This document shows positions 1-49,863 of a stretch of DNA of 64,000 nucleotides, in pieces; the first letter of the stretch is position 1; the number at the start of each line of letters is the position of its first letter. A model generated the notes under the pieces. The model saw nothing but the letters and a program-made list of their open reading frames with translations, searched no databases and was not told the DNA's origin. The position numbers and the translations under genes were made by a program. Origin of the DNA: Naegleria gruberi. Its lineage: Eukaryota. Location: NCBI GenBank assembly GCA_000004985.1, contig GG738871.1, one strand, 5' to 3'.

Positions 1-1700
1 GCGGTCAATTCTGTGAAATTCCAAAATGTAATGGAACAATGCAAGGTGATAATTCAGTTTGCTCAGGACATGGTTCATGTGTTGGTGTTGACCTTTGTAA
101 TTGTAATTCAACTCACTGGGGAGGTAAATTCTGTGAAATTCCAAAATGTTTTGGAGTATTAGCCAATGAATCTAATGTTTGTTCAGGACATGGTTCGTGT
201 ATTGGTGCTGATTTGTGTTCCTGTAATTCCACATATTGGGGAGACGAGAACTGTCAAACAGCAAAATGTAATGGTATTTTAGCAACAGATGCAAGTGCTT
301 GTAATTATCAAGGAGTTTGTTCAGGAGCTGACTTGTGTGTTTGTAATTCAACATATGGCGGTCAATTTTGCCAAGTACCTAGATGCAATGGAACAATGCA
401 AGGTGATAATTCAGTATGTTCAGGACATGGTTCTTGTGTTGGTGTTGACAAATGTAATTGTAATTCAACATCACTGGGGAGGTCAATTCTGTGAAATTCC
501 AAAGTGTTTTGGAGTATTAGCCAATGAATCTAATGTTTGTTCAGGACATGGTTCGTGTATTGGTGCTGATTTGTGTTCCTGTAATTCCACATATTGGGGA
601 GATGAAAATTGTCAAACAGCAAAATGTAATGGTATTTTAGCTACTCAAACAAATAGTGTTTGTTATGGACATGGTTCTTGTGTAGATGCCGATGTTTGTA
701 ACTGTAATTCCACATATTGGGGTGGAGAATTCTGCAAATATCCAAAATGTTTTGGAATCTTATCCACAGAAGCAAATGCTTGTTCGGCACCAAACCAAGG
801 TTTATGTGTTGATGCAGACACTTGTGCTTGTAACTCAACTTATTGGGGAGATGAAAAGTGCCAAACATTCAAGTGTAACAATATTCTTTCCACGTCAGAC
901 TCTGTTTGTTATGGTCAAGGAGTGTGTGTAGCTGTAGATACTTGCGTTTGTAACTCAACATATGGAGGCCAATTTTGTCAAACACCAAAATGTAATGGTA
1001 CTTTGGCCGGGGATAACTTAGTATGTTCAGGACATGGTTCTTGTGATGGAGTTGACAAATGTAATTGTAATTCAACATATTGGGGAGGTCAATTCTGTGA
1101 AATTCCAAAATGTTTTGGAGTATTAGCCAATGAATCTAATGTTTGTTCAGGACATGGTTCATGTATTGGTGCTGATTTGTGTTCCTGTAATTCCACATAT
1201 TGGGGAGATGAAAATTGTCAAACAGCAAAATGTAATGGTATTCTGTCAACACAAACAAGTACTGTTTGCTACGGTCATGGTTCTTGTGTAGATGCCGATG
1301 TTTGTAATTGTAATTCCACATATTGGGGTGGAGAATTCTGCAAATATCCAAAATGTTTTGGAATCTTATCTACCGATTCTTCAACTTGTTCATTCCATGG
1401 CTTGTGTATTGATGCTGATTTGTGTTCATGTAACTCAACCCATTGGGGAGGTGAAAAGTGTGACATTCCAAAATGTAATGGAATTTTAGCAACAGATACA
1501 AATGTTTGTAATTATCAAGGAGTTTGTTCAGGAGCTGACTTGTGTGTTTGTAACTCAACATATGGAGGCCAATTTTGTCAAACACCAAAATGTAATGGTA
1601 CTTTAGCAGGTGATAGTTCAGTATGTTCAGGACATGGTTCATGTGACGGAGTTGACAAATGTACTTGCAACTCGACATATTGGGGAGGTCAATTCTGTCA
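1..1700 (+). repeat. Intragenic higher-order tandem repeat: a ~590-nt unit of six EGF modules, about 3 copies, near-identical at nucleotide level.
   Basis: Segments 110-270, 500-660 and 1090-1250 are almost identical (ggtcaattctgtgaaattccaaaatgttttggagtattagccaatgaatctaatgtttgttcaggacatggttc...). The block 1-360 recurs at 361-; protein blocks FCEIPKCFGVLANESNVCSGHGSCIGADLCSCNSTYWGDENCQTAKCNGIL recur three times. Confidence 0.7.
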
Positions 1701-4107
1701 AACTCCAAAATGTGATGGTATCTTAGCTTCCAATACTTCGACTTGTAATGGACAAGGTTCCTGTATCAATGCTGATGTTTGTATTTGTAATGATTACAAT
1801 CTTTGGGAAGGTAAATTCTGCCAAGTACCAATGTGTTACGGTAAACCACAAGGTGGATCTTCCACATGTAATAATGGAAATGGTACTTGTACATCTCCAA
1901 ATCACTGTTCCTGTAACTCTGGATATGTAGGCCCAGAATGTGAATATCCAGTTTGTTTCAATGTACCTAGCAATGACTCTTCAGTGTGTAACAATCGAAA
2001 CGGTACATGTATTTCACCTGATAAGTGTGCTTGTGAAAGTGGGTGGACTGGCGATAGTTGTCAAACACCAATCTGTTTCTCAATTTTGGGTAACTCTTCA
2101 GCTGTTTGTAGTCAAAGAGGTAGTTGTGTAGCTCCAAATTTTTGTGTTTGTAAGGATCATTATTATGGAGACGCATGTCAAAGAACTACTTGTTATGGTA
2201 TTGCTGATGATTCTAGTTCAACATGTTTTGGTCACGGTTCTTGTAGTGATTACAATACTTGTAATTGTTCATCAGGTTATGGTCCAGACAATTATTGTGA
2301 GCATCCAATATGTTATGGTTATTTAGCAAATGATACTAGAGTTTGTAACAATTCACGTGGTGTCTGTTTGAGTCCTGACGAATGTAGACCTTTGGACCCT
2401 GTATGTTTCGAAAAGGCAAAGAACGACAGTAATGTTTGCAGTGGTCATGGTAAATGTGTTGATTGGGATTATTGTGTTTGTAACACTTCAGATTATTATG
2501 GAGATCAATGTCAATATTGGAAATGTTTTACAAAGAATTACAACGCCTCAAATGTTTGTAATAACGGAAACGGTACCTGCTCATCTGTTAATAATTGTGT
2601 TTGCAACAGTGGATGGTATGGAAATGAATGTACAGTTCCAATGTGTAATGGAATTCTTGGTAATTCATCCCTCGTTTGTAACAATGGAAATGGTACCTGC
2701 TCCAAACCAGGTGCATGTCAATGTAATACTGGATATACAGGATCTGATTGTTCCATTCCAATTTGTTATGACAAATTAGCAAGTGACACAAGTAATGTTT
2801 GTTCAGGAAAGGGTTCTTGTGTTGCTAAGGATACTTGCTCTTGTCAAAACAAGTATACAGGTTATGAATGTCAATATGCCACATGTTATGGAGTTTCATC
2901 CAATTCTACAAGTGTCTGTAGTGGTAATGGTACATGTAACGGAGTTGATTCTTGTAATTGTTTATATGGTTATGGAGATTCTCAATGTAATGTTTTCAAA
3001 TGTTCCAATATTTTGGCTACTAGTAATAGCGTGTGTAGTGGAAGAGGTAAATGTTATGGAATTGATAAGTGTCAATGTGATACTGGTTACTATGGTCCTA
3101 ATTGTCAATATACCACTTGTAATGGTATTGCTGCTAACGACACTTCTGTATGTAATAGCAATGGTACCTGTACTGCTTATGAAACTTGTTCTTGCTCTGC
3201 TGATTGGTATGGCAAAAATTGTGACATTACTAAGTGTTACAATATCTTCTCAAATGATACAAGTGTTTGCAGTAGTAAGGGTAAATGTATCCTCAAGGAC
3301 AAGTGTGTCTGTACAGACATTAATTATGGTGGTTCTCAATGTGCCGATCCATACTGTTTTGGTTATTTGGCCGGAACTGTTGGAGTTTGTAGTGGAAATG
3401 GTCAATGTTTGGGAGTTAACTCTTGTAATTGTAATACTGGTTTCCTTGCCTCAAAGTGTCAATTCAAAACAATTAGTGGTATCTCTCTCACGTTCAATGC
3501 CTCTGCTGATTATGCCAATGAAACTCTCACCACCAAGGCAACTTTGTCAATTACTGACTCTTCATTCAGTACCTATTATGCTTCTACTAGCTTGAATGCT
3601 ACATTCTCATTTGTTTTCAATGGAGTTACATCAACATTCGACAAGATTCTCCCAGCCGGATCCAACAATGTTGAATTCATTCTTCCATTCTTCTACACTC
3701 AAAAAGGAACTGTTACCAGCTCTGTAACTCTCAAATTCACTGAAAGTACCACAACCATTACTGCAGGTCAAGCAACTGGTTCATCTTTAACCATTCAACA
3801 AAGAGTAATACCAACACCAACACCTACACCTATCAAATCATCACCAAAACCACAAGTTTCTCCAGCCAAATCCACCAACACTGTCAATCCAAAGGCCTCC
3901 ACTTCAACAACCACTAAGAGTGATTCCAATGTTGGAGGTGCCATTGCAGCTGGAGTCATTGTTCCATTAGTTGTAATTGGTGGAGGTGGTATCACTGCTG
4001 CCATCATTGCTGTTGTTGTCATTATGAAGAAGAAGGCCGCCACAGCAGCTGCCAGAGAACTTACCTATGCCACTCACTACGATGTTGAATTGGCTGAAGG
4101 TTACTGA
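1..4107 (+). CDS. EGF-like repeat type I membrane glycoprotein, family member C. 5-prime partial; enters the window in frame 3, shifts to frame 1 near 466-472, TGA stop at 4105-4107.
   Basis: About 35 tandem ~32-aa Cys-rich modules (CxxxGxCxxxDxCxCNSTYWGGxxCxxPKC, tenascin/EGF-like). They are followed by a ~170-aa Cys-free domain, a Thr/Pro-rich stalk, a hydrophobic helix GGAIAAGVIVPLVVIGGGGITAAIIAVVVI, and the tail KKKAATAAARELTYATHYDVELAEGY. The ORF 39..494 and the ORF 289..4107 are the same gene joined by a 1-nt insertion relative to sister repeat copies (compare 100-120 with 466-480). Confidence 0.75.
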
Positions 4108-4290
4108 TCGGATCTTTAGATTCCTTAATTCTGAAATAAAAAAATATTCTAACATTTCAAAAATATTGAATATTTGATAAACTGTGAACCTAAGAAATCT
4201 CAAATATGGCAATTAATTAAATTTCACCTTTTTAGTTTACTAATATTAAGACAATAAACGAAAACATTTAAAATAAATAATTGAATAAAA

Positions 4291-5856
4291 ATGCCAGAAG
4301 CTGCTGTCCTTTATCAATACCTCAAAAAGCATTCATCACTCTCCGTGTTGGTGGCCGTAGCATCACTCTCCTATTTGACCATTAGTGAAGTTTTAACCCG
4401 ATACTTTAACTTGTCTTCGATGACAAATTCATCTTCATGTCCAAATAATAGTATATTGGGTAATTCACTTTCCGAATATTTAAAACAAGATAAAGAACAT
4501 GTTCATATTGTAGGAGGAGGAATTTCTGGTTTATTGATGGGATTTATGTGTAAGGAATTGAAAATTCCCTTCACAATTTATGAAGCCAATGAAAATTCGT
4601 GTGGTGGCTTGTTGGGAAGTGAAAGAATTGCATTCAATCATGATGAAGAGTGGATGATTGCGGAGAAAGCAGCAAATGGTGTAATGTGGACTCCTCAAGT
4701 GGAATTGTTGTGTGAAAGGATTGGATTGATGGAAAGAGTTTTGTCAACCAAGAAGGAGGCGAAAGCAAGGTTTTTTGTTAGGAATGGAAAGTTGACTCAA
4801 TTTCCTATCAGTTATTTGTCAGTGTTTAATTTGTTGACTTGGAGAATGTGGAAATTGCCAGTGAATAGCTCATTCCAAAGTTTGGATGATTATTTTGGAT
4901 TTTATTTTGGTGAGGAAATTAAGAATCAATTTTTGGAACCTGCATTTGCTGGAATTTTTGGAACGACTCTGAATAATTTATCAGTTTTTGGCACAACTGA
5001 AATATTTCCAAAATTATTGAGTCAATCTTTGAGTTTTCCAATTTCGTTGGTGAAAAACGTAATTTCTGAAGTGTGGAATGGAATATTTGGAAGAAAACAA
5101 ATGAAATCTTCAAATAGGAGAGGTACGCACAGTTTCCAATGTGGTGTTCAAGATTTGATTGACCATTTAGTTCGCCACTTGGGTACAAACAATATCAAGT
5201 TTGGATGTGAAATTAAGGATTTATCTCATTTCCCAAGTGGTCAGAGAGTAATTTTAACAACGCCTGCCTATCAGACATTGAATATTCTTCAAAGTAATCT
5301 CTCTACCACTGAAAATGGTAGAGAATTGATTGAATTATTATCTAAAATTAGATATACTCCAATAGGTACATGTACTGTGATTGTGGAAAGAAGCAAGTGT
5401 CCAAAATTAGAGAAAGGGTTTGGCTGTCTCATTCCTAGAAATGAAGGAATGCACATTTTGGGAGTCCTTTTCAATTCATCTATTTTTGAGAATAGAGTTT
5501 CACATGATGAGAGATTTGCCAGTCTTACTTGTATCATGCAAGATAATGAAAAAAGTGGAAAACTCTCTGATGAAGAGTTATTGGAAAATATTGTTTCTAA
5601 AGAGTTGAGTTTATTATTCATGAACTCAAAGGAGGAAAACATTTCCATTGTAAAGAGCTCAATGAAGAGGTGGAAGTATGGAATTCCAGTTTATGACCAT
5701 CATCTTTACAAGTCTTGGAGCTCAATTCATTCCATCATGAAACAAGATTTACCTAATGTTAATTTATTTGGAAACTATACGGGACAGATTTCTATTCGTG
5801 GTATGATTGGACAAGCTGTTGAGCTTTTGACTAGTTTGGAAAATAGAAAGCATTAG
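4291..5856 (+). CDS. FAD-dependent protoporphyrinogen oxidase (HemY/PPOX)-like oxidoreductase with an N-terminal ~75-aa hydrophobic extension.
   Basis: Rossmann dinucleotide motif HVHIVGGGISGL is present. EPAFAGIFGTTLNNLSV resembles the PPOX GIYAGD region, and the C-terminal NLFGNYTGQISIRGMIGQA resembles the PPOX C-terminus. Single 521-aa ORF, TAG stop. Confidence 0.6.
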   Translation: MPEAAVLYQYLKKHSSLSVLVAVASLSYLTISEVLTRYFNLSSMTNSSSCPNNSILGNSLSEYLKQDKEHVHIVGGGISGLLMGFMCKELKIPFTIYEANENSCGGLLGSERIAFNHDEEWMIAEKAANGVMWTPQVELLCERIGLMERVLSTKKEAKARFFVRNGKLTQFPISYLSVFNLLTWRMWKLPVNSSFQSLDDYFGFYFGEEIKNQFLEPAFAGIFGTTLNNLSVFGTTEIFPKLLSQSLSFPISLVKNVISEVWNGIFGRKQMKSSNRRGTHSFQCGVQDLIDHLVRHLGTNNIKFGCEIKDLSHFPSGQRVILTTPAYQTLNILQSNLSTTENGRELIELLSKIRYTPIGTCTVIVERSKCPKLEKGFGCLIPRNEGMHILGVLFNSSIFENRVSHDERFASLTCIMQDNEKSGKLSDEELLENIVSKELSLLFMNSKEENISIVKSSMKRWKYGIPVYDHHLYKSWSSIHSIMKQDLPNVNLFGNYTGQISIRGMIGQAVELLTSLENRKH

Positions 5857-23357: not shown

Positions 23358-25070
23358 TTATTTTTCAACTAATGGTATTAAGAAATGGTTTGGTATTTTA
23401 CAATCGAAATAGGTTTCAGTCATTCTGATTTTTCTGAGTTTTTCAAACTTTTCTCGTTTAGGAAAAAAGCAAAATCCGTTCTGTTTAGCAGCAATTTCGC
23501 TTATTGTTTCATCTTTACGATGCAATGGAGCATGATATAATAAAAATCCATTCTTTTTAACCAATTCCATTACAATATTTCGATTTTTTAAAATTAAAAA
23601 ATTCATTTCTTCTCTTCCAATTTTCACATTTGGATTACGGACTTTCCATAGCCTTTCGTCATTGGTCAACCTATCTGAAGCTCCAAAAAAAGACCCTTTA
23701 TATTTGACTGCTGCCTCAACAACCTCAATATCGTTCTTTAGTTCGCTTGCCTCAATAAGAACACTTTTTAAAATTGAATCATTTTTCAATAATCGAATAA
23801 TGAATTGCTTGTCTCTCTTCAGAGTTGGATCTAAGAGTCTCATAAAATTCTGACAATTATTGTTATTTTCCAAAAGGGATTCAATAAATTCTTTGTCATG
23901 TTGTAACTCATTAGAGGCAAATAGGAAAGCCTTACACTCTTTCTTTACAGCATGTGTTACGATAGATTTGTCATTAATCAACACATCAGATGCAGCTTCC
24001 AAAGCTGAAGGAAAATTTGATATGGCTTCCCATACAATTTCATAATCATTTCTGTAAATATAGGGACAATAACAAAGCACGCCCCCTGATTTTCTCACAG
24101 TTTGCAAAACCAAATCTCTGTCAATACTATCCTCTTTCATCTTTGGAAAAATATACTCTATTCCATTGACGGCCAATTGTAACATCTCTCTAACAAATAG
24201 ATCATCATTCTTTAACTCTTCAGATGCATACATCATTGCACTTCCATGGATTAATATTGATCTTTTTACAATTTCTCTATGATTTCGGAATTCAGGTTTG
24301 ATAAATTCAATAATATTTGCAAATAAAGAACATTCCAAAATAAAGTCAACATCTTGCTTCAGATCATCGGTTGCATATTTAAATTGATATCGATTTTTTT
24401 TCACACAATTCAAAACCAATTCTCTATTGGATTTTAGCTCATCAGGGAATGATTCTAGACATGAGAAATGTTTCAAAATTTCAATGTCATTATGAAATTC
24501 TTTGGGTAAAAGGTGTTTTAGATCGGTCGAATTCATTCTTGCTATCATCTCTTTATGCGTGAAAAACAATCTATCACTTGCCAATTCATCTAAATAGGGT
24601 AGTAATGTCTCTCCGATTTTTACTTGGTAAGGCTCAATATTAGAAAGGACGAATTCTCTATTATTTCTCAATTCTTTTGACGCAAATTGAAACATGTTTG
24701 GAAAAATCATACAACAATCTTTCACAATTTGTGGATTGTTTTTAACATGAAAAGGTGAATCTTCACATAGCTGAAAATAATATTCCAATCTGAGGTTATA
24801 TTCTAAATACCAATAAAAAAACTTTTGTGCTATTGGATTTTTCTTGCCATTAGAAATTACAAACTCAAAAACTTCTTTATCATCAGTAAATTCGAGAGGC
24901 AAAAATTTGAATCTGTCTGGGTTCTCAAAATGTAAACGTCTGTTTTCGAGATAAAGAAGAAATCCTTTTTGTTGAGTTTGAAATTTTCGGATTAAAAGTT
25001 TGACTTGATGAGAAATGCAATGATCAAAATCTATCAGATAGAGAGTGGTGTGATGTGTGCTTCCAGACAT
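23358..25070 (-). CDS. DUF4116-repeat protein.
   Basis: About 12 degenerate ~35-aa repeats of the form ELKNNREFVLSNI / DELKSNRELVLNCVKKNRYQFKYATDDLKQDVDFIL / ELKNDIEVVEAAVKYKG. Single 570-aa ORF. Confidence 0.6.
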   Translation of the reverse strand: MSGSTHHTTLYLIDFDHCISHQVKLLIRKFQTQQKGFLLYLENRRLHFENPDRFKFLPLEFTDDKEVFEFVISNGKKNPIAQKFFYWYLEYNLRLEYYFQLCEDSPFHVKNNPQIVKDCCMIFPNMFQFASKELRNNREFVLSNIEPYQVKIGETLLPYLDELASDRLFFTHKEMIARMNSTDLKHLLPKEFHNDIEILKHFSCLESFPDELKSNRELVLNCVKKNRYQFKYATDDLKQDVDFILECSLFANIIEFIKPEFRNHREIVKRSILIHGSAMMYASEELKNDDLFVREMLQLAVNGIEYIFPKMKEDSIDRDLVLQTVRKSGGVLCYCPYIYRNDYEIVWEAISNFPSALEAASDVLINDKSIVTHAVKKECKAFLFASNELQHDKEFIESLLENNNNCQNFMRLLDPTLKRDKQFIIRLLKNDSILKSVLIEASELKNDIEVVEAAVKYKGSFFGASDRLTNDERLWKVRNPNVKIGREEMNFLILKNRNIVMELVKKNGFLLYHAPLHRKDETISEIAAKQNGFCFFPKREKFEKLRKIRMTETYFDCKIPNHFLIPLVEK

Positions 25071-27638: not shown

Positions 27639-30600
27639 ATGGTTACTGGAGGCAATCTTTCAGTATCTTGCTTTAAACAAGATGTAAAATCAGTTAGAGG
27701 CCTCATTGTCCTTCTCTTGTTGATTCTCTGTTTGACAACAATTGAGAAATGTTGTGGATATTACTACACAATGAATACTGTTGGTACCTTCACTTCTGGA
27801 ACCACCTTGTATCAAATGGACAAGTCCAAATTCTTCGCTAACAGATTCTACGTAGCAACAAGTGGAGGTCTTCAGTATTTCACTGTATCAAGTGGTGTGG
27901 CAAATCCAAGTAATTCTTATGTGTATAGTGGTGGGTTTCAAACTACCAGTATGGCAAATGTTGTTGTCAGAAGTACATCATCAAGTAAAGATGATGTTTT
28001 TTCTGGTACCATTAACACCTCCACTTGGAGGTATGGTTCAATAGCCAGTTCAACCACTACTGGTAATTCACTCACCAGTTGTGGCGTTATTGTTGCTGGT
28101 GTAAAACTCGATGCAAGCTCTACAACTTTTTCTGTGATTGGCAATGGTGTTGTGGGTACATTAACAATGACAACAGGTGGTAGTGCATCTTGTTCTGCAG
28201 TTACCTCATTTACAGGAGTTTCTGGCACAAGTACCACGCCATCTACTGATGGCACAGGTAGCGCAGCTACTGTTTACTCTAGTGGTACTCATGACATTAC
28301 CAAAAATTCAACATCTGGTGTAAGTATGAGAAAATTCAATTAATTAGATCTAACAACTGGCAGGTTTATTATTTTACTGAGGATTCAAAGATTAGAAAGG
28401 TTGTTTCAACTACTATCACAACTCTGGTAGGAGGAACTACTGGTACAGTGACAGATGGTACTCTCTCCTCTGCTACAGTTAAAAATCCAAGTTTCATGTC
28501 CATCTTGGGTGCAGGTGTAAGTTTTATTGCATTGTTATGATATATTAAACTGTTAACAGCTTGTATTTTCGGATACTGGTAGTAATAGAATTAGAGTTTT
28601 GGATACAGCCAATGAAGAAGTTGTTACTATTGCTGGTGGTGGCTCAACTACCCCATCAGGTACTGCTTCACTATCTGGTGCAGCAACAGGTTTTTCTTTA
28701 ACTAGCCCAAGAGGCATTTATGTGGACACTGATGACAGTATTTATTTTGTTGAAGGAATTTATGTTAGAAAGCTTGTCTATTCTTGTGAAGCAAATGAAA
28801 TTTATCAAGCAGGCTCATTCCCACCATGTGCTTGTAATACTACTGCTGGTTATGTGAGATCTGGAACTTCTTGCGTACCTACCTGTTCCAATTGTAATGT
28901 CAATCAAACATGTACTGGTCCAGAAACTTGTTCTTGTAAGAGTGGATATTCAGGAACAGATTGTTCTGCTTTTACCTGTTTTGGTGTAGCTCAAGATTCT
29001 ACATCTGTTTGTAATTCTAAAGGATATTGTGTTGCACCTGACACGTGTATATGTAGTGATACCTCCACTTTCTTTGGGTCAAATTGTAATGTGACTTATT
29101 GTAATTCTATTCCATCAACGAGTGGTAGTGTTTGTTCAGGACATGGAAGTTGTACTGATTATAATACTTGTACTTGTAGTGATACCAATTCATGGACAGG
29201 ATCTGATTGTGGAACACCTGTATGTGCAGTTGTGAGTGGAGGTGTTTGTTCTGGAAGAGGTAGTTGTACAGCTCCAAATATTTGCACTTGTAATGAACCA
29301 TCAAAATATGGTGGATCTTCATGTGAAATTCCAAAATGTAATGGAACACTTCAAGGCAATTCTGGTGTTTGCAATGGAAGAGGTTCTTGTATTGATGTTG
29401 ATACTTGTCAATGCACTGTTCCAACCTCTTGGGGTGGTTCATTCTGTGAAAAACCATACTGCTCTGGAATTTTACAAGGTGCAGCTGGTGTTTGTTCAAA
29501 TAGAGGAGTTTGTTCATCTCCTGATTCTTGTGTTTGTAATGAACAAACAAAGTATGGTGGTTCAAATTGTCAACTTGTCAAATGTGGAGGTTATTTGGAA
29601 ACAGACTCTGCTGTTTGTAACAAGAATGGTTCATGTATTGCTGTTGATACTTGTTCCTGTAATTCAAATTATGGTGGTTCAGATTGTCAATATCCAAAGT
29701 GTAATGGCATTGCTTCGAATAGTGGTAGTGTTTGTAATTCACAAGGATCATGTGTTGCACCAAATGTTTGTGTCTGTAATTCAAATTATGCTGGACCATT
29801 ATGCGAATATCCAAAATGTAATGGCGTAGCTTCCAATGATGCAAGTGTTTGCAATTCGAATGGAACTTGTACTGGTGTTAATACTTGTGTTTGTAATGTT
29901 AACTATACAGGATCATATTGTCAATATCCAAAATGTAATGGAATATCTTCCAATGATGCAAGTGTTTGTAATAACAAAGGTGGTAATTGTATTGCACCAA
30001 ATGTTTGTTCATGTAATTCAAGTTATACTGGTCAATTCTGTCAATTCCCAAAGTGTAATGGTATTGGATCCAATGATGCAAGTGTTTGTAATGCAAATGG
30101 TACTTGTATTGGAATTAATGTTTGTTCATGCAATTCAAATTATGCTGGTCCATATTGTCAATATCCAAAATGTAATGGTATTGCTTCAAATAGTGGTAGT
30201 GTTTGTAATTCACAAGGATCATGTGTTGCACCAAATGTTTGCGCCTGTAATTCAAATTATGCTGGTACATATTGTGATAAACCAAGATGTGGAACCTTTT
30301 ATAAGGGAGATGCTTCTGTTTGTAATTCGAGAGGTAGTTGTGATGCTGTTGATAGTTGTACTTGTAGTGATACATCTTCTTGGGGTGGTAATTTGTGTCA
30401 ATATCCAAAATGTAATGGTGTTCTTTCAAATATTGGAACTGTTTGTAGCAGTAGAGGTACTTGTCAATCTCCAAACAATTGTTCATGCACTGATCCAAAT
30501 TCATATGGTGGTTCATATTGTGAAAAAGCAAAATGTTATGGAATTCTTCAAGGAGATTCAAATGTTTGCAGTGGACATGGTACTTGTAGTGGTGTGAATC

Positions 30601-32542
30601 AATGTTCATGCAGTGCTGGATATGGAGGTGAACAATGTCAATATCCAAAATGTTTCAATATTTTGAGTAATGAAACAACAGTTTGTAACAATAGAAACGG
30701 TACTTGTACTGCACCTGACACTTGTTCATGTAATAATGGATGGACTGGAAGCAAGTGTGATGTTGCCATTTGTTTTTCAATTCTCTCCAATTCAACAAGT
30801 GTTTGTTCAAACAAGAGAGGTAATTGTGTCACACCAGATAATTGTGTTTGTAAAAGTCAATATTCAGGTTCTCAATGTGAATATACCACTTGTTCTGGAA
30901 TAAGATCAGATCAACATCGACAGTATGTTATGGAAATGGTCAATGTATTGATTATTTACTTGTAATTGTACAACTGGTTATGGACCATCCAATGTATGTC
31001 AATATCCAATTTGTGGTGGTTATTTAGCAAATGATACCAGAGTTTGTAACAATTCAAGAGGTGTTTGTTCCAAACCAAATACATGTAGACCATTAGATCC
31101 CGTATGTTATGGTAAAGCTCAGAATAATTCAATGGTTTGCAGTGGAAATGGAGCATGTGTTGATTGGGATTATTGTGAATGTAAAACTGGTTTCAATGGA
31201 AATGAATGTCAAAATTGGGAATGTTATGGAAAGAATTATACCAACTCAAATGTTTGTAACAATAGAAATGGTACCTGTTCATCTGTGAATAATTGTGTTT
31301 GCAACAGTGGATGGTATGGAAATGAATGTACAGTTCCAATGTGTAATGGAATTCTTGCTAATTCATCTCTCATTTGTAACAATAGAAATGGTACCTGCTC
31401 CAAACCAGGTGCATGTCAATGTAATACTGGATACACAGGACCTGATTGCTCCATTCCAATTTGTTATGGAAAATTAGGCAAGTGACACAAGTAATGTTTG
31501 TTCAGGAAGAGCAGAATGTATTGGTTATAACAAGTGTAATTGTGACACTTCCAAGTATAGTGGTTCACAATGTGAATATTTCAAATGTTTTGGTATTCCA
31601 TCAAATGATGCTTCAGTTTGCAGCAGAAACGGAACATGCTCTGGAGTGAATCAATGTTCTTGTAATTATGGTTATGGTTCTTCAAATTGTGACATTTTCA
31701 CATGTTCAAACGTTCTTGCCACCGATTCGAGTGTTTGCACTGGAAAGGGTGTATGTTATGGAATTGACAAGTGTTCATGTGATTCAGGATATTTTGGATC
31801 AAATTGTGAAATTATCTCCTGTTATGGAATTCCAAAGTCCAACAATACTGTATGTGGAGGAGTTGGTGAATGTTCACAACTTGATACATGTGTTTGTGGA
31901 AGCAATTATAGAGGATCAATGTGTGAATTATCTTACACCTCTTCATCTCAAGCAACACTTCAATTCAATAATACGAATGAATATGTGAATGAACAATTCA
32001 CAAGCATGGCCACTTTGACAATTAATAATCCTCTCTTCGGTCAATATTATTTGAGAAGAAGTGTTCAAGTTGTTGTTTCATTTGAAATTAATTCACAATT
32101 CAGTTATTCTGAAACACTTTATATTGAAAATGGAGTTTCATCTGTTTCATTAATGGTGAAATCGTTGAGTCAAACTGGTACATTGAAAGCATCTGCTCAA
32201 TTAATTGATAATAGTACATTAATTTCCATTTCAGATAGCATTCAATCTTCAAATAGCATTACAATTCAAAATAGACCTATTGTTGTTCCATCCACAACGA
32301 CATCCACAATCAAACCAACAACCTCTGCACAAACAAGTAGAGCTGTTATCGATACAGGAAGTAATGGTGGAGCCATTGCAGCTGGTATCATTGTTCCAGT
32401 GGCAGTTATTGGAATTGGAGGTGGTGTCACTGCAGCCATTGTCACAGCAGTTGTTTTGTTAAAGAAGAAGGCTGCTGCAGCTGCTGCCAAAGAAATTACA
32501 CATGCTCAACACGTCAATGTTGAACTAGCTGAAGGTTTCTAA
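27639..32542 (+). pseudogene. NHL-propeller/EGF-repeat membrane protein paralog A. Exons 27639..28319, 28364..28516 and 28560..32542; three frameshifting indels near 30913, 30956 and 31480 relative to paralog B.
   Basis: Same architecture as B (44914..49716). 28860-32542 is ~98% identical to 46030-49716 at nucleotide level, but reading requires frames 0, 1 and 2 (ORFs 28599..30965, 31132..31485, 31646..32542). Could be a recent pseudogene or assembly indels. Confidence 0.55.
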
Positions 32543-32791
32543 TCTTGTTGATAAAAATTCATTACTGCTTTCTCCAAAATATTTTCAATGAAGTCATAAA
32601 GTTGATTTCCAAAACCAATAACTTACATCTTGTATTAAACCTTTATCTTGTTAGAGTTGGCAACATAATGATTTTTCATATTTATTTGGATGTTGTTTTG
32701 TAAACACACTTGTCGAATCAATCCATTGATTTTTGACAAGATCAACACAGTAGTAGCCCGATTAGTCCCTCCATTTTCCATTATAAAAAAA

Positions 32792-44913: not shown

Positions 44914-47900
44914 ATGAAACTAGTGAGCTTTCCCTATCATTTGTTGATTGCTGCTTGTGTAGTGTTACTTCTTGGCAAAGTTAGTGCATGGAGATATTCT
45001 GTGAAAACTCTTGCTACAGGTCTAGGCAGTATTTCTCAAATTGTTGGCTCTCCAAAATATATTTATGTTACACTTGGCTCCAGTTCAAAGAAGATTTATG
45101 CCTACGATAGACAATTATTGGCCACTCAGTCTGTACAAACATTGCAACAAGTCCACGATATAACAGCATCATCAAACAATATTGGTTATATTGCTTATCA
45201 TGGCAATGATTCGAATGACGCTGAAGTGATATCAGTAGCTGGCAATAATTTTCCAAACAATGTGGGTTTGTACTGGTTTACATGCTCATCAACCTGTTCC
45301 ACTCCAACACCCTTCTCTTATAATATAAGGGTCTCAGGAATTAGATCCCTAGGAATTGAGAACTCAACTCCCAAACTTTACATAACAAGACAAACAGCAA
45401 TTTACACTGGCACTCCTTCAGCAAATGCTATTGTATCAACAACTGGAACAATCAATTTTAAAGCTTTCAATGATGTTGATTATATTGGCAATACAGTAAG
45501 TTTTAATTATTTTGCAAATAGGTAACATTGGTTTAGGTTTATTTTACTGACTCAGGTGGAAACCTAAAAATTGCAACAAGTTCAACACCATTAATCAGTG
45601 TAGGCACATTTAGTGATGGTGCCAGTGGTACTGCTCGTTTATCTTCAGGCACAACATTCATCTCTGCACAGTTCAATAAGGTATGTAGTTATGAACAATA
45701 TGTTGTTGGAATAATTTTAAAAGATTTTTATCTCAGACACTGGAAACAGTAGAATTAGACTTTATGATATTGCTACAGGAATTACAACTACAATAGCTGG
45801 TGATCCTTCTAAATCAACAGCTGGAACAACAACTTTCAGTTTATCCGACGTACCAACTAATTACAAATTCACACCAACAGGTATTTGGATTGATAACTCT
45901 AATGGTATCATTTATTTTGCAGACACCAGTACCTTGAGAGCTTTAGTTCCAACTTGTAACAGTACTACAGAAGATCAATCTTCAACTTACCCTTTCTGTA
46001 CTTGTAAAACTGGATATTCATTGGTAAATGGAGATTGTGTTGCATCCACTAGTTGTTCTCCAGGATTGTGTAATGACAATCAAACATGTACTGGCCCAGA
46101 AACTTGTTCTTGTAAGAGTGGATATTATGGAACAAATTGTGATAATTATGACTGTTATGGAACTCAGAAGGATAATCTTTCTGTATGTAATGGAAAAGGT
46201 GTTTGCGTTTCTCCAAACACGTGTATTTGCACCAATGCAAACTATGATGGCTTTAATTGTAATATTACAACTTGTAATTCTATTCCATCAACGAGTGGTA
46301 GTGTTTGTTCTGGACATGGAAGTTGTACTGATTATAATACTTGTGCTTGTAGTGATACCAATTCATGGACAGGATCTGATTGTGGAACACCTGTATGTGC
46401 AGCTGTGAGTGGAGGTGTTTGTTCTGGAAGAGGTAGTTGTACAGCTCCAAATATTTGTACTTGTAATGAACCATCAAAATATGGTGGATCTTCATGTGAA
46501 ATTCCAAAATGTAATGGAACACTTCAAGGCAATTCTGGTGTTTGCAATGGAAGAGGTTCTTGTATTGATGTTGATACTTGTCAATGCACTGTTCCAACCT
46601 CTTGGGGTGGTTCATTCTGTGAAAAACCATACTGCTCTGGAATTTTACAAGGTGCAGCTGGTGTTTGTTCAAATAGAGGTGTTTGTTCATCTCCTGATTC
46701 TTGTGTTTGTAATGAACAAACAAAGTATGGTGGTTCAAATTGTCAACTTGTTAAATGTGGAGGTTATTTAGAAACAGACTCTGCTGTTTGTAACAAGAAT
46801 GGTTCATGTATTGCTGTTGATACTTGTTCCTGTAATTCAAATTATGATGGCCAATTTTGTCAATATCCAAAATGTAATGGCATTGCTTCAAATAGTGGTA
46901 GTGTTTGTAATTCACAAGGATCATGTGTTGCACCAAATGTCTGCTCTTGTTTCACAAATTATGCTGGACCATTATGCGAATATCCAAAATGTAATGGCGT
47001 AGCTTCCAATGATGCAAGTGTTTGTAGCTCGAATGGTACCTGTACTGGTGTTAATACTTGTGTTTGTAATGTTAACTATACAGGATCATATTGTCAATAT
47101 CCAAAATGTAATGGAATATCTTCAAACGATGCAAGTGTCTGTAATAACAAAGGTGGTAATTGTATTGCACCAAATGTTTGTTCATGTAATTCAAGTTATA
47201 CTGGTCAATTCTGTCAATTCCCAAAGTGTAATGGTATTGGATCCAATGATGCAAGTGTTTGTAGTGCAAATGGTACTTGTATTGGAATTAATATTTGTTC
47301 ATGCAATTCAAATTATGCTGGTCCATATTGTCAGTATCCAAAATGTAATGGCATTGCTTCAAATAGTGGTAGTGTTTGTAATTCACAAGGATCATGTGTT
47401 GCACCAAATGTTTGCGCCTGTAATTCAAATTATGGTGGTACATATTGTGATAAACCAAGATGTGGAACCTTTTACAAGGGAGATGCTTCTGTTTGTAATT
47501 CGAGAGGTAGTTGTGATGCTGTTGATAGTTGTACTTGTAGTGATACTTCTTCTTGGGGTGGCAATTTGTGTCAATATCCAAAATGTAATGGTGTTCTTTC
47601 AAATATTGGAACTGTTTGTAGCAGTAGAGGTACTTGTCAATCTCCAAACAATTGTTCATGCACTGATCCAAATTCATATGGTGGTTCATATTGTGAAAAA
47701 GCAAAATGTTATGGAATTCTTCAAGGAGATTCAAATGTTTGTAGTGGACATGGTACTTGTAGTGGTGTGAATCAATGTTCATGTAGTGCTGGATATGGAG
47801 GTGAACAATGTCAATATCCAAAATGTTTCAATATTTTGAGTAATGAAACAACAGTTTGTAACAATAGAAACGGTACTTGTACTGCTCCTGACACTTGTTC

Positions 47901-49716
47901 ATGTAAAAATGGATGGACTGGAAGCAAGTGTGATGTTGCCATTTGTTATTCAATTCTCTCCAATTCAACAAGTGTTTGTTCAAACAAGAGAGGTAATTGT
48001 GTCACACCAGATAATTGTGTTTGTAAAAGTCAATATTCAGGTTCTCAATGTGAATATACCACTTGTTCTGGAATAAGATCAGATCAAACATCGACAGTAT
48101 GTTATGGAAATGGTCAATGTATTGATTATAATACTTGTAATTGTACAACTGGTTATGGACCATCCAATGTATGTCAATATCCAATTTGTGGTGGTTATTT
48201 AGCAAATGATGCCAGAGTTTGTAACAATTCAAGAGGTGTTTGTTCCAAACCAAATACATGTAGACCATTAGATCCCGTATGTTATGGTAAAGCTCAGAAT
48301 AATTCAATGGTTTGCAGTGGAAATGGAGCATGCGTTGATTGGGATTATTGTGAATGTAAAACTGGTTTCAATGGAAATGAATGTCAAAATTGGGAATGTT
48401 ATGGAAAGAATTATACCAACTCAAATGTCTGTAACAATGGAAATGGTACCTGTTCATCTGTGAATAATTGTGTTTGTAACAGTGGATGGTATGGAAACGA
48501 ATGTACAGTTCCAATGTGTAATGGAATTCTTGGCAATTCATCTCTCGTTTGTAACAATAGAAATGGTACCTGCTCCAAACCAGGTGCATGTCAATGTAAT
48601 ACTGGATACACAGGACCTGATTGCTCCATTCCAATTTGTTATGGAAAATTAGGCACTGATACAAGTAATGTTTGTTCAGGAAGAGCAGAATGTATTGGTT
48701 ATAACAAGTGTAATTGTGACACTTCCAAGTATAGTGGTTCACAATGTGAATATTTCAAATGTTTTGGTATTCCATCAAATGATGCTTCAGTTTGCAGCAG
48801 AAACGGAACATGCTCTGGAGTGAATCAATGTTCTTGTAATTATGGTTATGGTTCTTCAAATTGTGACACTTTCACATGTTCAAATGTTCTTGCCACCAAT
48901 TCAAGTGTTTGCAGTGGAAAGGGTGTATGTTATGGAATTGACAAGTGTTCATGTGATTCAGGATATTTCAGTACCAATTGCGAGCTATTTTCTTGTTATG
49001 GAATTCCAAAGTCCAACAATACTGTATGTGGAGGAGTTGGTGAATGTTCACAACTTGATACATGTGTTTGTGGAAGCAATTATAGAGGATCAATGTGTGA
49101 ATTATCTTACACCTCTTCATCTCAAGCAACACTTCAATTCAATAATACGAATGAATATGTGAATGAACAATTCACAAGCATGGCCACTTTGACAATTAAT
49201 AATCCTCTCTTCGGTCAATATTATTTGAGAAGAAGTGTTCAAGTTGTTGTTTCATTCCAAATTAATTCACAATTCAGTTATTCTGAAACACTTTATATTG
49301 AAAATGGAGTTTCATCTGTTTCATTAATGGTGAAATCATTGAGTCAAACTGGTACATTGAAAGCATCTGCTCAATTAATTGATAATAGTACATTGATTTC
49401 CATTTCAGATAGTATTCAATCTTCAAATAGCATTACAATTCAAAATAGACCTATTGTTGTTCCATCCACAAAGACATCCACAACCAAACCAACAACCTCT
49501 GCACAAACAAGTAGAGCTGTTATCGATACAGGAAGTAATGGTGGAGCCATTGCAGCTGGTATCATTGTTCCAGTGGCAGTTATTGGAATTGGAGGTGGTG
49601 TCACTGCAGCCATTGTCACAGCAGTTGTTTTATTAAAGAAGAAGGCTGCTGCAGCTGCTGCCAAAGAAATTGCACATGCCCAACACGTCAATGTTGAACT
49701 AGCTGAAGGTTTCTAA
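44914..49716 (+). CDS. NHL-propeller/EGF-repeat type I membrane glycoprotein, paralog B (intact). Exons 44914..45495, 45546..45680 and 45724..49716.
   Basis: Signal peptide MKLVSFPYHLLIAACVVLLLGKVSA. NHL-like blades (VYFTDSGGNLKIA; IFISDTGNSRIRLYDIATGITTTIAG; GIWIDNSNGIIYFADTSTL). About 35 EGF/tenascin-like Cys modules, a Cys-free ~170-aa domain, Ser/Thr stalk, helix GGAIAAGIIVPVAVIGIGGGVTAAIVTAVVLL, and tail KKKAAAAAAKEIAHAQHVNVELAEGF. Introns GTAAGT...TTTAG and GTATGT...AAAAG. Confidence 0.8.
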
Positions 49717-49863
49717 TTGTTCATTATGATAGTTTGTCAATAATAAACTTTAAATTTTGATGTTTAGTGAAATGATGCTCAATTATTTAAATGGTTCGTA
49801 ATTGTCTCTCCTAACAAAATAGAAACTACAACCAAATCACAGGGCATCACAACACAAAATAAA

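What the first reader, a model, noticed from the sequence alone, without database searches (positions are those of the whole stretch)
1..1700. Near-perfect ~590-nt higher-order tandem repeat inside an EGF-repeat coding region
Three copies of a six-EGF-module unit are almost identical at the DNA level, while modules within a unit differ from one another. This pattern indicates very recent unequal crossing-over or intragenic gene conversion, so the repeat array of this surface protein is a rapidly expanding and contracting locus.
Basis: seen in the sequence. Interest (0 to 1): 0.6.

Follow-up and report, generated by a model that had tools for sequence, protein, structure and literature searches.

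The report
Mosaic five-module EGF repeat array
Part of the EGF-repeat region of a Naegleria gruberi surface-protein gene is built from a duplicated block of five EGF modules whose copies are patchily alike (70-99%), an ordinary sign of unequal crossing-over and gene conversion and not a near-perfect, freshly made repeat.

Summary
The window is Naegleria gruberi. Positions 1-4107 (+) are the 3' part of an unannotated gene for a type I membrane protein: 28 EGF modules, a non-EGF domain, a Ser/Thr/Pro stalk, a transmembrane helix and a short tail.

A higher-order repeat exists at nucleotide level, but not as described.
- **Unit size:** five modules (600-606 nt), not six.
- **Layout:** A B C | A B D E C' | A B D E' C | A. 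That is two full units, one three-module unit and a lone A. The array runs off the window start.
- **Identity:** about 80% overall (TRF, 2.8 copies). By module type it is B 97-99%, A 79-92%, D 91%, C 90% and E 70%.
- **Synonymous divergence:** between units 2 and 3, dS ranges from 0.04 (B) to 1.4 (E). One recent duplication cannot explain that spread.

Identical tracts cross module borders, which points to an older block duplication followed by patchy gene conversion. The closest homologue (N. lovaniensis, 49% identical) has only seven such modules, none above 74% alike, so the expansion is lineage-specific.

A 1-nt insertion near 471 breaks the reading frame. Copy-number instability could not be tested. 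This is a real but ordinary feature.

The parts
1..26 (+). Tail (GGQFCEIPK) of an EGF module that starts upstream of the window. It is A-type, with 1 mismatch to 1085-1110.
   Evidence: read directly from the sequence
27..383 (+). Short unit U1 of three modules: A1 27-146, B1 147-266, C1 267-383. Reading frame 3.
384..990 (+). Full unit U2 of five modules: A2 384-504 (121 nt, carries a 1-nt insertion), B2 505-624, D1 625-747, E1 748-873, C'1 874-990.
468..494 (+). Frameshift site and its consequence. AACATCACTGG has one base more than the AACTCACTGG / AACATATTGG of the other A modules. The upstream frame (frame 3) then ends at the TAA at 492-494, and the coding sense continues in frame 1.
991..1590 (+). 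Full unit U3 of five modules: A3 991-1110, B3 1111-1230, D2 1231-1353, E2 1354-1473, C2 1474-1590.
1591..1710 (+). Fourth A module (A4), the last member of the homogenised array.
1711..3468 (+). Fourteen further EGF modules (15-28) that are not homogenised (48-64% nt identity to each other). They are collinear with modules L11-L24 of the N. lovaniensis homologue. A degenerate stretch lies at 2311-2403.
2570..2810 (+). Patch about 95% identical to the paralogue at about 48440-48680, against a 65-75% background. It looks like an interlocus gene-conversion tract.
3469..3810 (+). Non-EGF extracellular domain with no Pfam match. It is shared with the N. lovaniensis homologue and with the paralogue at 45721-49713.
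3811..3933 (+). Pro/Ser/Thr-rich stalk.
   Evidence: read from the translation
3934..4026 (+). Hydrophobic 31-residue stretch (GGAIAAGVIVPLVVIGGGGITAAIIAVVVIM), taken to be the transmembrane helix.
   Evidence: read from the translation; inferred from hydrophobicity
4027..4107 (+). Short cytoplasmic tail KKKAATAAARELTYATHYDVELAEGY plus the TGA stop. The motif is conserved in the paralogue and in N. lovaniensis.

Best explanation
The region is the membrane-distal part of the EGF stalk of a Naegleria gruberi type I membrane protein. The family has an N-terminal NHL beta-propeller in its relatives, followed by a long EGF array, a small non-EGF domain, a transmembrane helix and a short tail.

Proposed history:
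1. In the N. gruberi lineage, a block of five already-diverged 'xWGGxFC'-type EGF modules (A-B-D-E-C, about 600 nt) was duplicated in tandem by unequal crossing-over.
2. The duplication created long stretches of identity in the 600-nt register. These then served as substrates for further unequal exchange. One product is the three-module unit A-B-C, which lacks D-E.
3. Short-tract gene conversion (about 100-250 nt) then re-homogenised some patches (A core, B, D core, C tail) and left others (E, and the Cys1-Cys2 loops of A and D) at their older divergence.

The result is a mosaic higher-order repeat of the kind seen in other tandem arrays under concerted evolution.

Shown here: the module layout, the uneven synonymous divergence, tracts that cross module borders, and the absence of such a repeat in the closest homologue.

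Inferred: the order of events, the crossover that removed D-E, and any present-day instability.
For: - **Layout and identities:**
- **Uneven dS inside one unit pair:** B 1 of 25.3 synonymous sites changed (dS 0.04), E 15.75 of 24.8 (dS 1.4), and A, D, C' in between at 0.41-0.63. B copies encode identical protein and differ by only 1-4 synonymous changes. Collinear modules in the N. lovaniensis homologue are saturated (pooled pS 0.74), so codon bias does not keep synonymous sites identical.
- **Clustered changes:** identical tracts run across module borders, from the A core through all of B into the head of D, from the D core into the head of E, and from the C tail into the head of the next A (permutation p = 0.001).
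- **Lineage specificity:** 11 of 14 array modules best match the single N. lovaniensis module L7, the three B copies match L16 (51% against 50% for L7/L10) and E1 matches L10. Modules 15-28 lie collinear with L11-L24. The corresponding N. lovaniensis modules L4-L10 are only 59-74% identical to each other.
- **Conversion elsewhere in the family:** a patch of about 240 nt at about 95% identity sits in a 65-75% background between this gene and a paralogue 46 kb away.
- **The D-E gap:** the C1 head (TGTAATGGTATTTTAGC) carries the GGT of the D heads that follow B, not the GGA of C2. This fits a D/C crossover that removed D-E, but it rests on a single marker base and is weak.
Against: - Each module has only about 25 synonymous sites, so individual dS values are noisy.
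- Differences pile up in the Cys1-Cys2 loops, so part of the mosaic could reflect relaxed or diversifying selection there. However, synonymous changes are also concentrated in those loops.
- The N. lovaniensis gene is not syntenic with the window, so it may be a paralogue and not the orthologue.
- The array is cut by the window edge.
- No reads, second allele or second strain were available.
- The frameshift at about 471 raises the possibility of a consensus error in a repeat that is hard to assemble.
Confidence: 0.72

Rival explanations
1. A single recent tandem duplication of the five-module block with no later conversion. The uneven identity would then come from different selective pressures on the modules.
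For: The 600-606-nt register is clean, and identical protein in the three B copies shows strong constraint on B.
Against: Synonymous divergence should be about equal across one duplicated block, but it ranges from 0.04 to 1.4. Module E has dN/dS of about 0.18, which is not positive selection. Synonymous changes cluster together with the non-synonymous ones. The A modules show conflicting relationships: in the loop A2 groups with A1, while its core is no closer to A1 (7 changed codons) than to A3 (4).
Confidence: 0.1
2. An assembly artefact. The repeat number, order or some bases would be products of collapsing or mis-joining reads or haplotypes in a repetitive gene.
For: There is a 1-nt frameshift at a site where A-type modules differ. 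No public protein model covers this gene. A neighbouring paralogue carries three frameshifting indels.
Against: Every copy has its own private substitutions. All module borders stay in register and, apart from one base, in frame. The longest exact run between units is 98 nt, which by general knowledge is shorter than a Sanger read, so the copies should have been separable. Downstream of the frameshift, 1211 codons stay open.
Confidence: 0.08
3. Nucleotide-level conservation of the B module comes from an overlapping functional element (an RNA, an antisense gene or extreme codon preference) and not from recombination.
For: B copies are 97-99% identical, including at synonymous sites.
Against: There is no Rfam match on either strand. 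The antisense ORF 1370-1708 does not coincide with any B copy. Other modules of the same gene, and modules compared between species, are saturated at synonymous sites, so codon preference is not limiting. The identical tracts extend beyond B into A and D.
Confidence: 0.03
4. The gene is a recently inactivated pseudogene, and the repeat pattern is a relic with no present function. This is compatible with the main explanation for how the repeat arose.
For: The frameshift at about 471 gives a stop at 492-494. A paralogue in the same window has three frameshifts. The gene is absent from public protein sets.
Against: There is only one disabling change in more than 4.1 kb. The 3.6 kb downstream stays open and all six-cysteine patterns are intact. 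The extra base could be a sequencing error or belong to one haplotype only.
Confidence: 0.3

Closest known systems
Higher-order repeats maintained by unequal crossing-over and gene conversion (concerted evolution of tandem arrays, e.g. alpha-satellite HORs). From general knowledge.
   Same: Units are more alike than the monomers inside a unit: 80% against 64% by TRF, and 85% against 66% by module. Identity is mosaic and tracts ignore monomer borders.
   Different: This array is coding, in frame and very short (2.8 units visible). Identity between units is modest (about 80%) compared with the 95-100% typical of young satellite HORs.
Intragenic domain-repeat arrays with variable copy number in surface or secreted proteins (LPA kringle IV-2, yeast FLO/ALS adhesin repeats, central repeats of Paramecium surface antigens). 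From general knowledge.
   Same: A tandem, in-frame repeat of cysteine-rich extracellular modules in a membrane protein. Some copies are almost identical at synonymous sites. Unit size varies within the array, three versus five modules.
   Different: Copy-number polymorphism, the hallmark of those loci, was not shown here. Most of this repeat is far from identical. No role in antigenic or adhesive variation is known.
Naegleria / Heterolobosea NHL-EGF membrane proteins (e.g. N. lovaniensis C9374_014632, annotated only as hypothetical EGF-like domain-containing protein).
   Same: 49% identity across the query (residues 690-1878 of the 1879-aa protein). Modules 15-28 are collinear with L11-L24, and the non-EGF domain, transmembrane helix and tail motif (DVELA-x-G) are shared.
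   Different: The homologue has only seven WGG-type modules and no nucleotide-level repeat (maximum 74%). Its flanks are not syntenic with the window. The NHL part of the N. gruberi gene lies outside the window and was not seen.
Teneurin and tenascin EGF arrays of animals.
   Same: The Pfam profiles EGF_TEN (172 bits, cutoff 65), EGF_Teneurin and EGF_2 match. The homologue also matches TEN_NHL.
   Different: The membrane orientation is the opposite of teneurins: type I, with a C-terminal transmembrane helix. The NHL domain lies N-terminal to the EGF array. No YD shell or toxin domain, no FN3 and no fibrinogen globe is present. The resemblance is at domain level only.

Membership tests
EGF-like domain repeats (Pfam EGF_2 / EGF_TEN) | Six-cysteine module C-x-C-x-C-x-C-x-C-x-C of about 30-40 residues that scores above the curated threshold. 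| tested here: met
   28 modules fit the six-Cys pattern. EGF_2 scores 176 bits (cutoff 22.1) and EGF_TEN 172 bits (cutoff 65).
Higher-order tandem repeat | Identity between multi-monomer units exceeds identity between adjacent monomers, at nucleotide level. | tested here: met
   Period 606 gives 80% matches and score 2008. Period 120 gives 64% and score 767. Same-type modules average 85.5% against 66% for different types.
   U2 against U3 is 84%. blastn gives 79% over 1152 nt. Module E is 70%.
Concerted evolution by gene conversion or unequal crossing-over | Repeats within a species are more alike than they are to their counterparts in a related species. | tested here: met
   11 of 14 array modules best match the single N. 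lovaniensis module L7, the three B copies match L16 (51% against 50% for L7/L10) and E1 matches L10. N. lovaniensis L4-L10 are 59-74% alike. Caveat: orthology is not backed by synteny.
Concerted evolution by gene conversion or unequal crossing-over | Mosaic tracts, meaning significant clustering of differences and unequal synonymous divergence along one duplicated block. | tested here: met
   dS ranges from 0.04 to 1.4 within U2/U3. The longest identical-codon run is 27 of 200, p = 0.001.
Copy-number-variable (contingency-like) surface-protein repeat | Different repeat numbers among alleles or strains. | not testable with these tools
   No N. gruberi DNA beyond the window could be fetched. Metagenome scans found no relatives.
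Teneurin | Type II membrane topology with an N-terminal cytoplasmic domain, followed by EGF, NHL, a YD shell and a toxin-like C-terminus. | tested here: not met
   The transmembrane helix is 27 residues from the C-terminus. The homologue has an N-terminal signal-like sequence with NHL before EGF, and no YD or Tox-GHH match.
Tenascin | EGF array followed by FN3 repeats and a fibrinogen globe. | tested here: not met
   No FN3 or fibrinogen match in the window gene or in P0001.
Naegleria NHL-EGF type I membrane protein family | An N-terminal NHL beta-propeller upstream of the EGF array. | not testable with these tools
   The 5' part of the gene lies outside the window. NHL is present in P0001, and an NHL-like sequence precedes the EGF array of the paralogue at 45721.
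Naegleria NHL-EGF type I membrane protein family | A shared C-terminal non-EGF domain, transmembrane helix and conserved tail. | tested here: met
   P0001 aligns through to its last residues (690-1878 against 475-4101). The tail motifs are compared.

The most novel reading that the evidence does not exclude
The EGF arrays of this Naegleria NHL-EGF gene family may act as a recombination-driven variation system. Short conversion tracts would move between modules within a gene and between paralogues tens of kilobases apart, and module blocks would be gained and lost. Strains or even clonal lineages would then display different surface stalks, analogous to variable adhesins or surface antigens of other protists.
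Probability: 0.1. Interest if true: 0.45.

Novelty: new member of a known kind. Interest (0 to 1): 0.2.

Why it matters
It adds one more worked example of concerted evolution inside a coding domain array, here in a free-living heterolobosean amoeba. It also flags a family of large NHL-EGF membrane-protein genes that seems to be missing from the public N. gruberi protein set. If the array proved to vary among strains, it could serve as a strain marker and hint at variable surface properties. Nothing here challenges current understanding.

Tried and rejected
- **Fetching DNA upstream of the window.** Exact look-ups of the N. gruberi proteins P0121 and P0004 found no contig on record, so the rest of the array could not be read.
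- **Looking for an annotated N. gruberi model of this gene.** Searches with 475-4104, 3-491 and 3355-4104 returned none. The best hits were 49% (N. lovaniensis) and 72% (a 174-aa environmental fragment).
- **Exact-sequence look-up of ten window ORFs.** Only 23361-25070 is in the collection. That ORF identified the organism.
- **Looking for alleles, strains or relatives in JGI metagenomes.** I scanned with a degenerate B-module DNA pattern and with the unit protein. Neither gave a usable hit.
- **Synteny with the N. lovaniensis locus.** tblastx found none.
- **Literature.** Two full-text searches on Naegleria EGF/NHL repeats found nothing relevant.
- **Rfam scan of 1-4300 on both strands.** No match.
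- **An intron as an explanation for the frame change.** Rejected, because module homology continues base for base across the site and module 4 is simply 121 nt instead of 120.
- **The 'six-module, about 590-nt, three-copy, near-perfect' description.** Rejected.

Full report
**Where the window comes from**

The ORF at 23361-25070 (-) is identical to Naegleria gruberi XP_002676626 (NAEGRDRAFT_68205), on a 417,575-bp scaffold. The window has 31-38% G+C. It carries eukaryotic genes such as a calpain, a ZIP transporter and a DUF4116 protein.

**The gene**

Positions 1-4107 (+) are the 3' part of one gene that starts upstream of the window.
- Translation gives 28 six-cysteine EGF modules of 114-126 nt.
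- These are followed by a non-EGF domain of about 110 residues, a Pro/Ser/Thr-rich stalk, a 31-residue hydrophobic helix (3934-4026), a 26-residue tail and a TGA stop.
- Pfam confirms EGF_2, EGF_TEN and EGF_Teneurin above threshold.
- The closest protein in 5.8 billion is N. lovaniensis C9374_014632 (P0001, 1879 aa, 49% identity). Its residues 690-1878 align to 475-4101.
- P0001 has an N-terminal signal-like sequence and about 690 residues of NHL repeats before its EGF array.

So the family is a type I membrane protein with an NHL propeller on an EGF stalk. It resembles teneurins only at domain level. The topology is reversed and there is no YD shell.

No public protein matches this N. gruberi gene itself, so it appears to be unannotated.

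**Checking the observation**

The standard TRF run saw only the 120-nt module period (64% matches), because its longest period was 500.
- Rerun with a 2000-nt limit, TRF reports 57-1713, period 606, 2.8 copies, 80% matches and score 2008.
- Offset scans show local identity of at least 85% at offsets 357/358, 600, 606/607, 964 and 1207.
- Self-blastn aligns 57-1191 with 658-1791 at 79%.

Module-by-module nucleotide identities define five types:

| Type | Modules | nt identity between copies |
|---|---|---|
| A | 1, 4, 9, 14 | 79-92% |
| B | 2, 5, 10 | 97-99% |
| C | 3, 13 (module 8 is a diverged C') | 90% (C' 67-75%) |
| D | 6, 11 | 91% |
| E | 7, 12 | 70% |

The order is [tail] A B C | A B D E C' | A B D E' C | A. 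Different types inside the array are 57-75% alike, and the remaining 14 modules are 48-64% alike.

The higher-order repeat is therefore real at the DNA level. Its unit is five modules (600-606 nt), not six. The copies are two full units, one three-module unit and one lone A. 'Near-perfect' applies only to B and its surroundings. Units 2 and 3 are 84% identical, with a longest exact run of 81 nt.

**How it arose**

*Synonymous divergence.* If one block had been duplicated once, synonymous divergence should be similar along it. Between units 2 and 3 it is not:

| Module | dS, unit 2 vs unit 3 |
|---|---|
| B | 0.04 |
| D | 0.41 |
| A | 0.47 |
| C'/C | 0.63 |
| E | 1.4 |

The three B copies encode identical protein and differ by 1-4 synonymous changes. 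Collinear modules of the N. lovaniensis homologue are saturated (pooled pS 0.74, pN 0.31). Codon preference therefore does not freeze silent sites.

*Codon map.* Identical stretches cross module borders:
- from the A core through all of B into the first codons of D;
- from the D core into the first codons of E;
- from the last 15 codons of C into the next A.

Synonymous and non-synonymous changes cluster together. The longest identical run is 27 of 200 codons, permutation p = 0.001.

*Conflicting relationships.* In the Cys1-Cys2 loop, A2 groups with A1. Its core is at least as close to A3, with 4 changed codons against 7 to A1.

*Conclusion.* These features fit an older block duplication followed by patchy short-tract conversion and further unequal exchange. 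The three-module unit is most simply a unit that lost D-E. The head of C1 carries the GGT seen in D heads, not the GGA of C2. That fits a D/C crossover, but it rests on one base.

*Lineage specificity.* Modules 15-28 lie collinear with L11-L24 of the homologue. Of the 14 array modules, 11 best match the single module L7. The three B copies score marginally higher against L16 (51% against 50% for L7/L10), and E1 best matches L10. N. lovaniensis has only seven modules of this type, and they are 59-74% alike at DNA level. The N. lovaniensis locus is not syntenic with the window, so orthology is likely but not proven.

*Conversion elsewhere in the family.* Gene 1 at 2570-2810 is about 95% identical to the paralogue at about 48440-48680, inside a 65-75% background. 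This tract is about the same size as those inside the array.

**The frameshift**

Module 4 is 121 nt. AACATCACTGG at 468-478 has one base more than the equivalent site in the other A modules. The upstream frame therefore stops at 492-494, and the sense continues in frame 1. Homology runs straight across the site, so this is not an intron. Downstream, 1211 codons remain open.

The extra base is either a sequencing or consensus error, a single-haplotype variant, or a very recent inactivating mutation. A neighbouring paralogue (28557-32539) has three frameshifting indels relative to its 96%-identical intact copy. Real pseudogenes therefore seem to occur in this family.

**What could not be tested**

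I could not test copy-number variation between alleles or strains, the part of the array upstream of the window, or read-level support for the assembly. No known RNA family overlaps the region.

**Verdict**

It is an ordinary, lineage-specific, mosaic higher-order repeat in an EGF stalk. It is explained by unequal crossing-over plus gene conversion, in a gene that may be broken as assembled.

Noticed in passing
window 468-494: A 1-nt insertion in EGF module 4 (AACATCACTGG) shifts the gene from frame 3 to frame 1 and creates a stop at 492-494. The 3.6 kb downstream stays open. It may be a sequencing error, a single-haplotype variant or a very recent pseudogenisation.
   Followed up: partly
window 28893-32543 and 46069-49717: A 3.65-kb segmental duplication at 96% identity carries two further NHL-EGF membrane-protein genes. 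The copy at 45721-49713 is open for 1331 codons. The copy at 28557-32539 has 1-nt indels at 30913, 30956 and 31480 that break its frame, so it looks like a pseudogene.
   Followed up: partly
window 2570-2810 vs about 48440-48680: A patch of about 240 nt (EGF modules 21-22 of gene 1) is about 95% identical to the paralogue 46 kb away, while flanking modules are 65-75% identical. It looks like an interlocus gene-conversion tract.
   Followed up: partly
window 1-4107, 28557-32539, 45721-49713: For gene 1, three protein searches found no N. gruberi model, although the neighbouring ORF 23361-25070 is present as XP_002676626. The top N. gruberi hit tested against the window (P0004) matches the other two genes at only 37-44%. 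The family may have been missed by the genome annotation.
   Followed up: partly
window 4027-4104; 49630-49713; L001 gene C-terminus: The cytoplasmic tail is short and conserved across paralogues and species: KKKA...(Y/V/L)(D/N)VELA(E/N)G(Y/F/C). It may be a sorting or signalling motif.
   Followed up: no
window 3469-3810: A membrane-proximal non-EGF domain of about 110 residues has no Pfam match. It is shared with the N. lovaniensis homologue, the window paralogue and two environmental proteins (P0122 at 72% identity, P0123 at 41%).
   Followed up: no
window 23358-25070 (-): A 570-aa protein made of eight DUF4116 repeats (NAEGRDRAFT_68205). It was used only to identify the organism.
   Followed up: no
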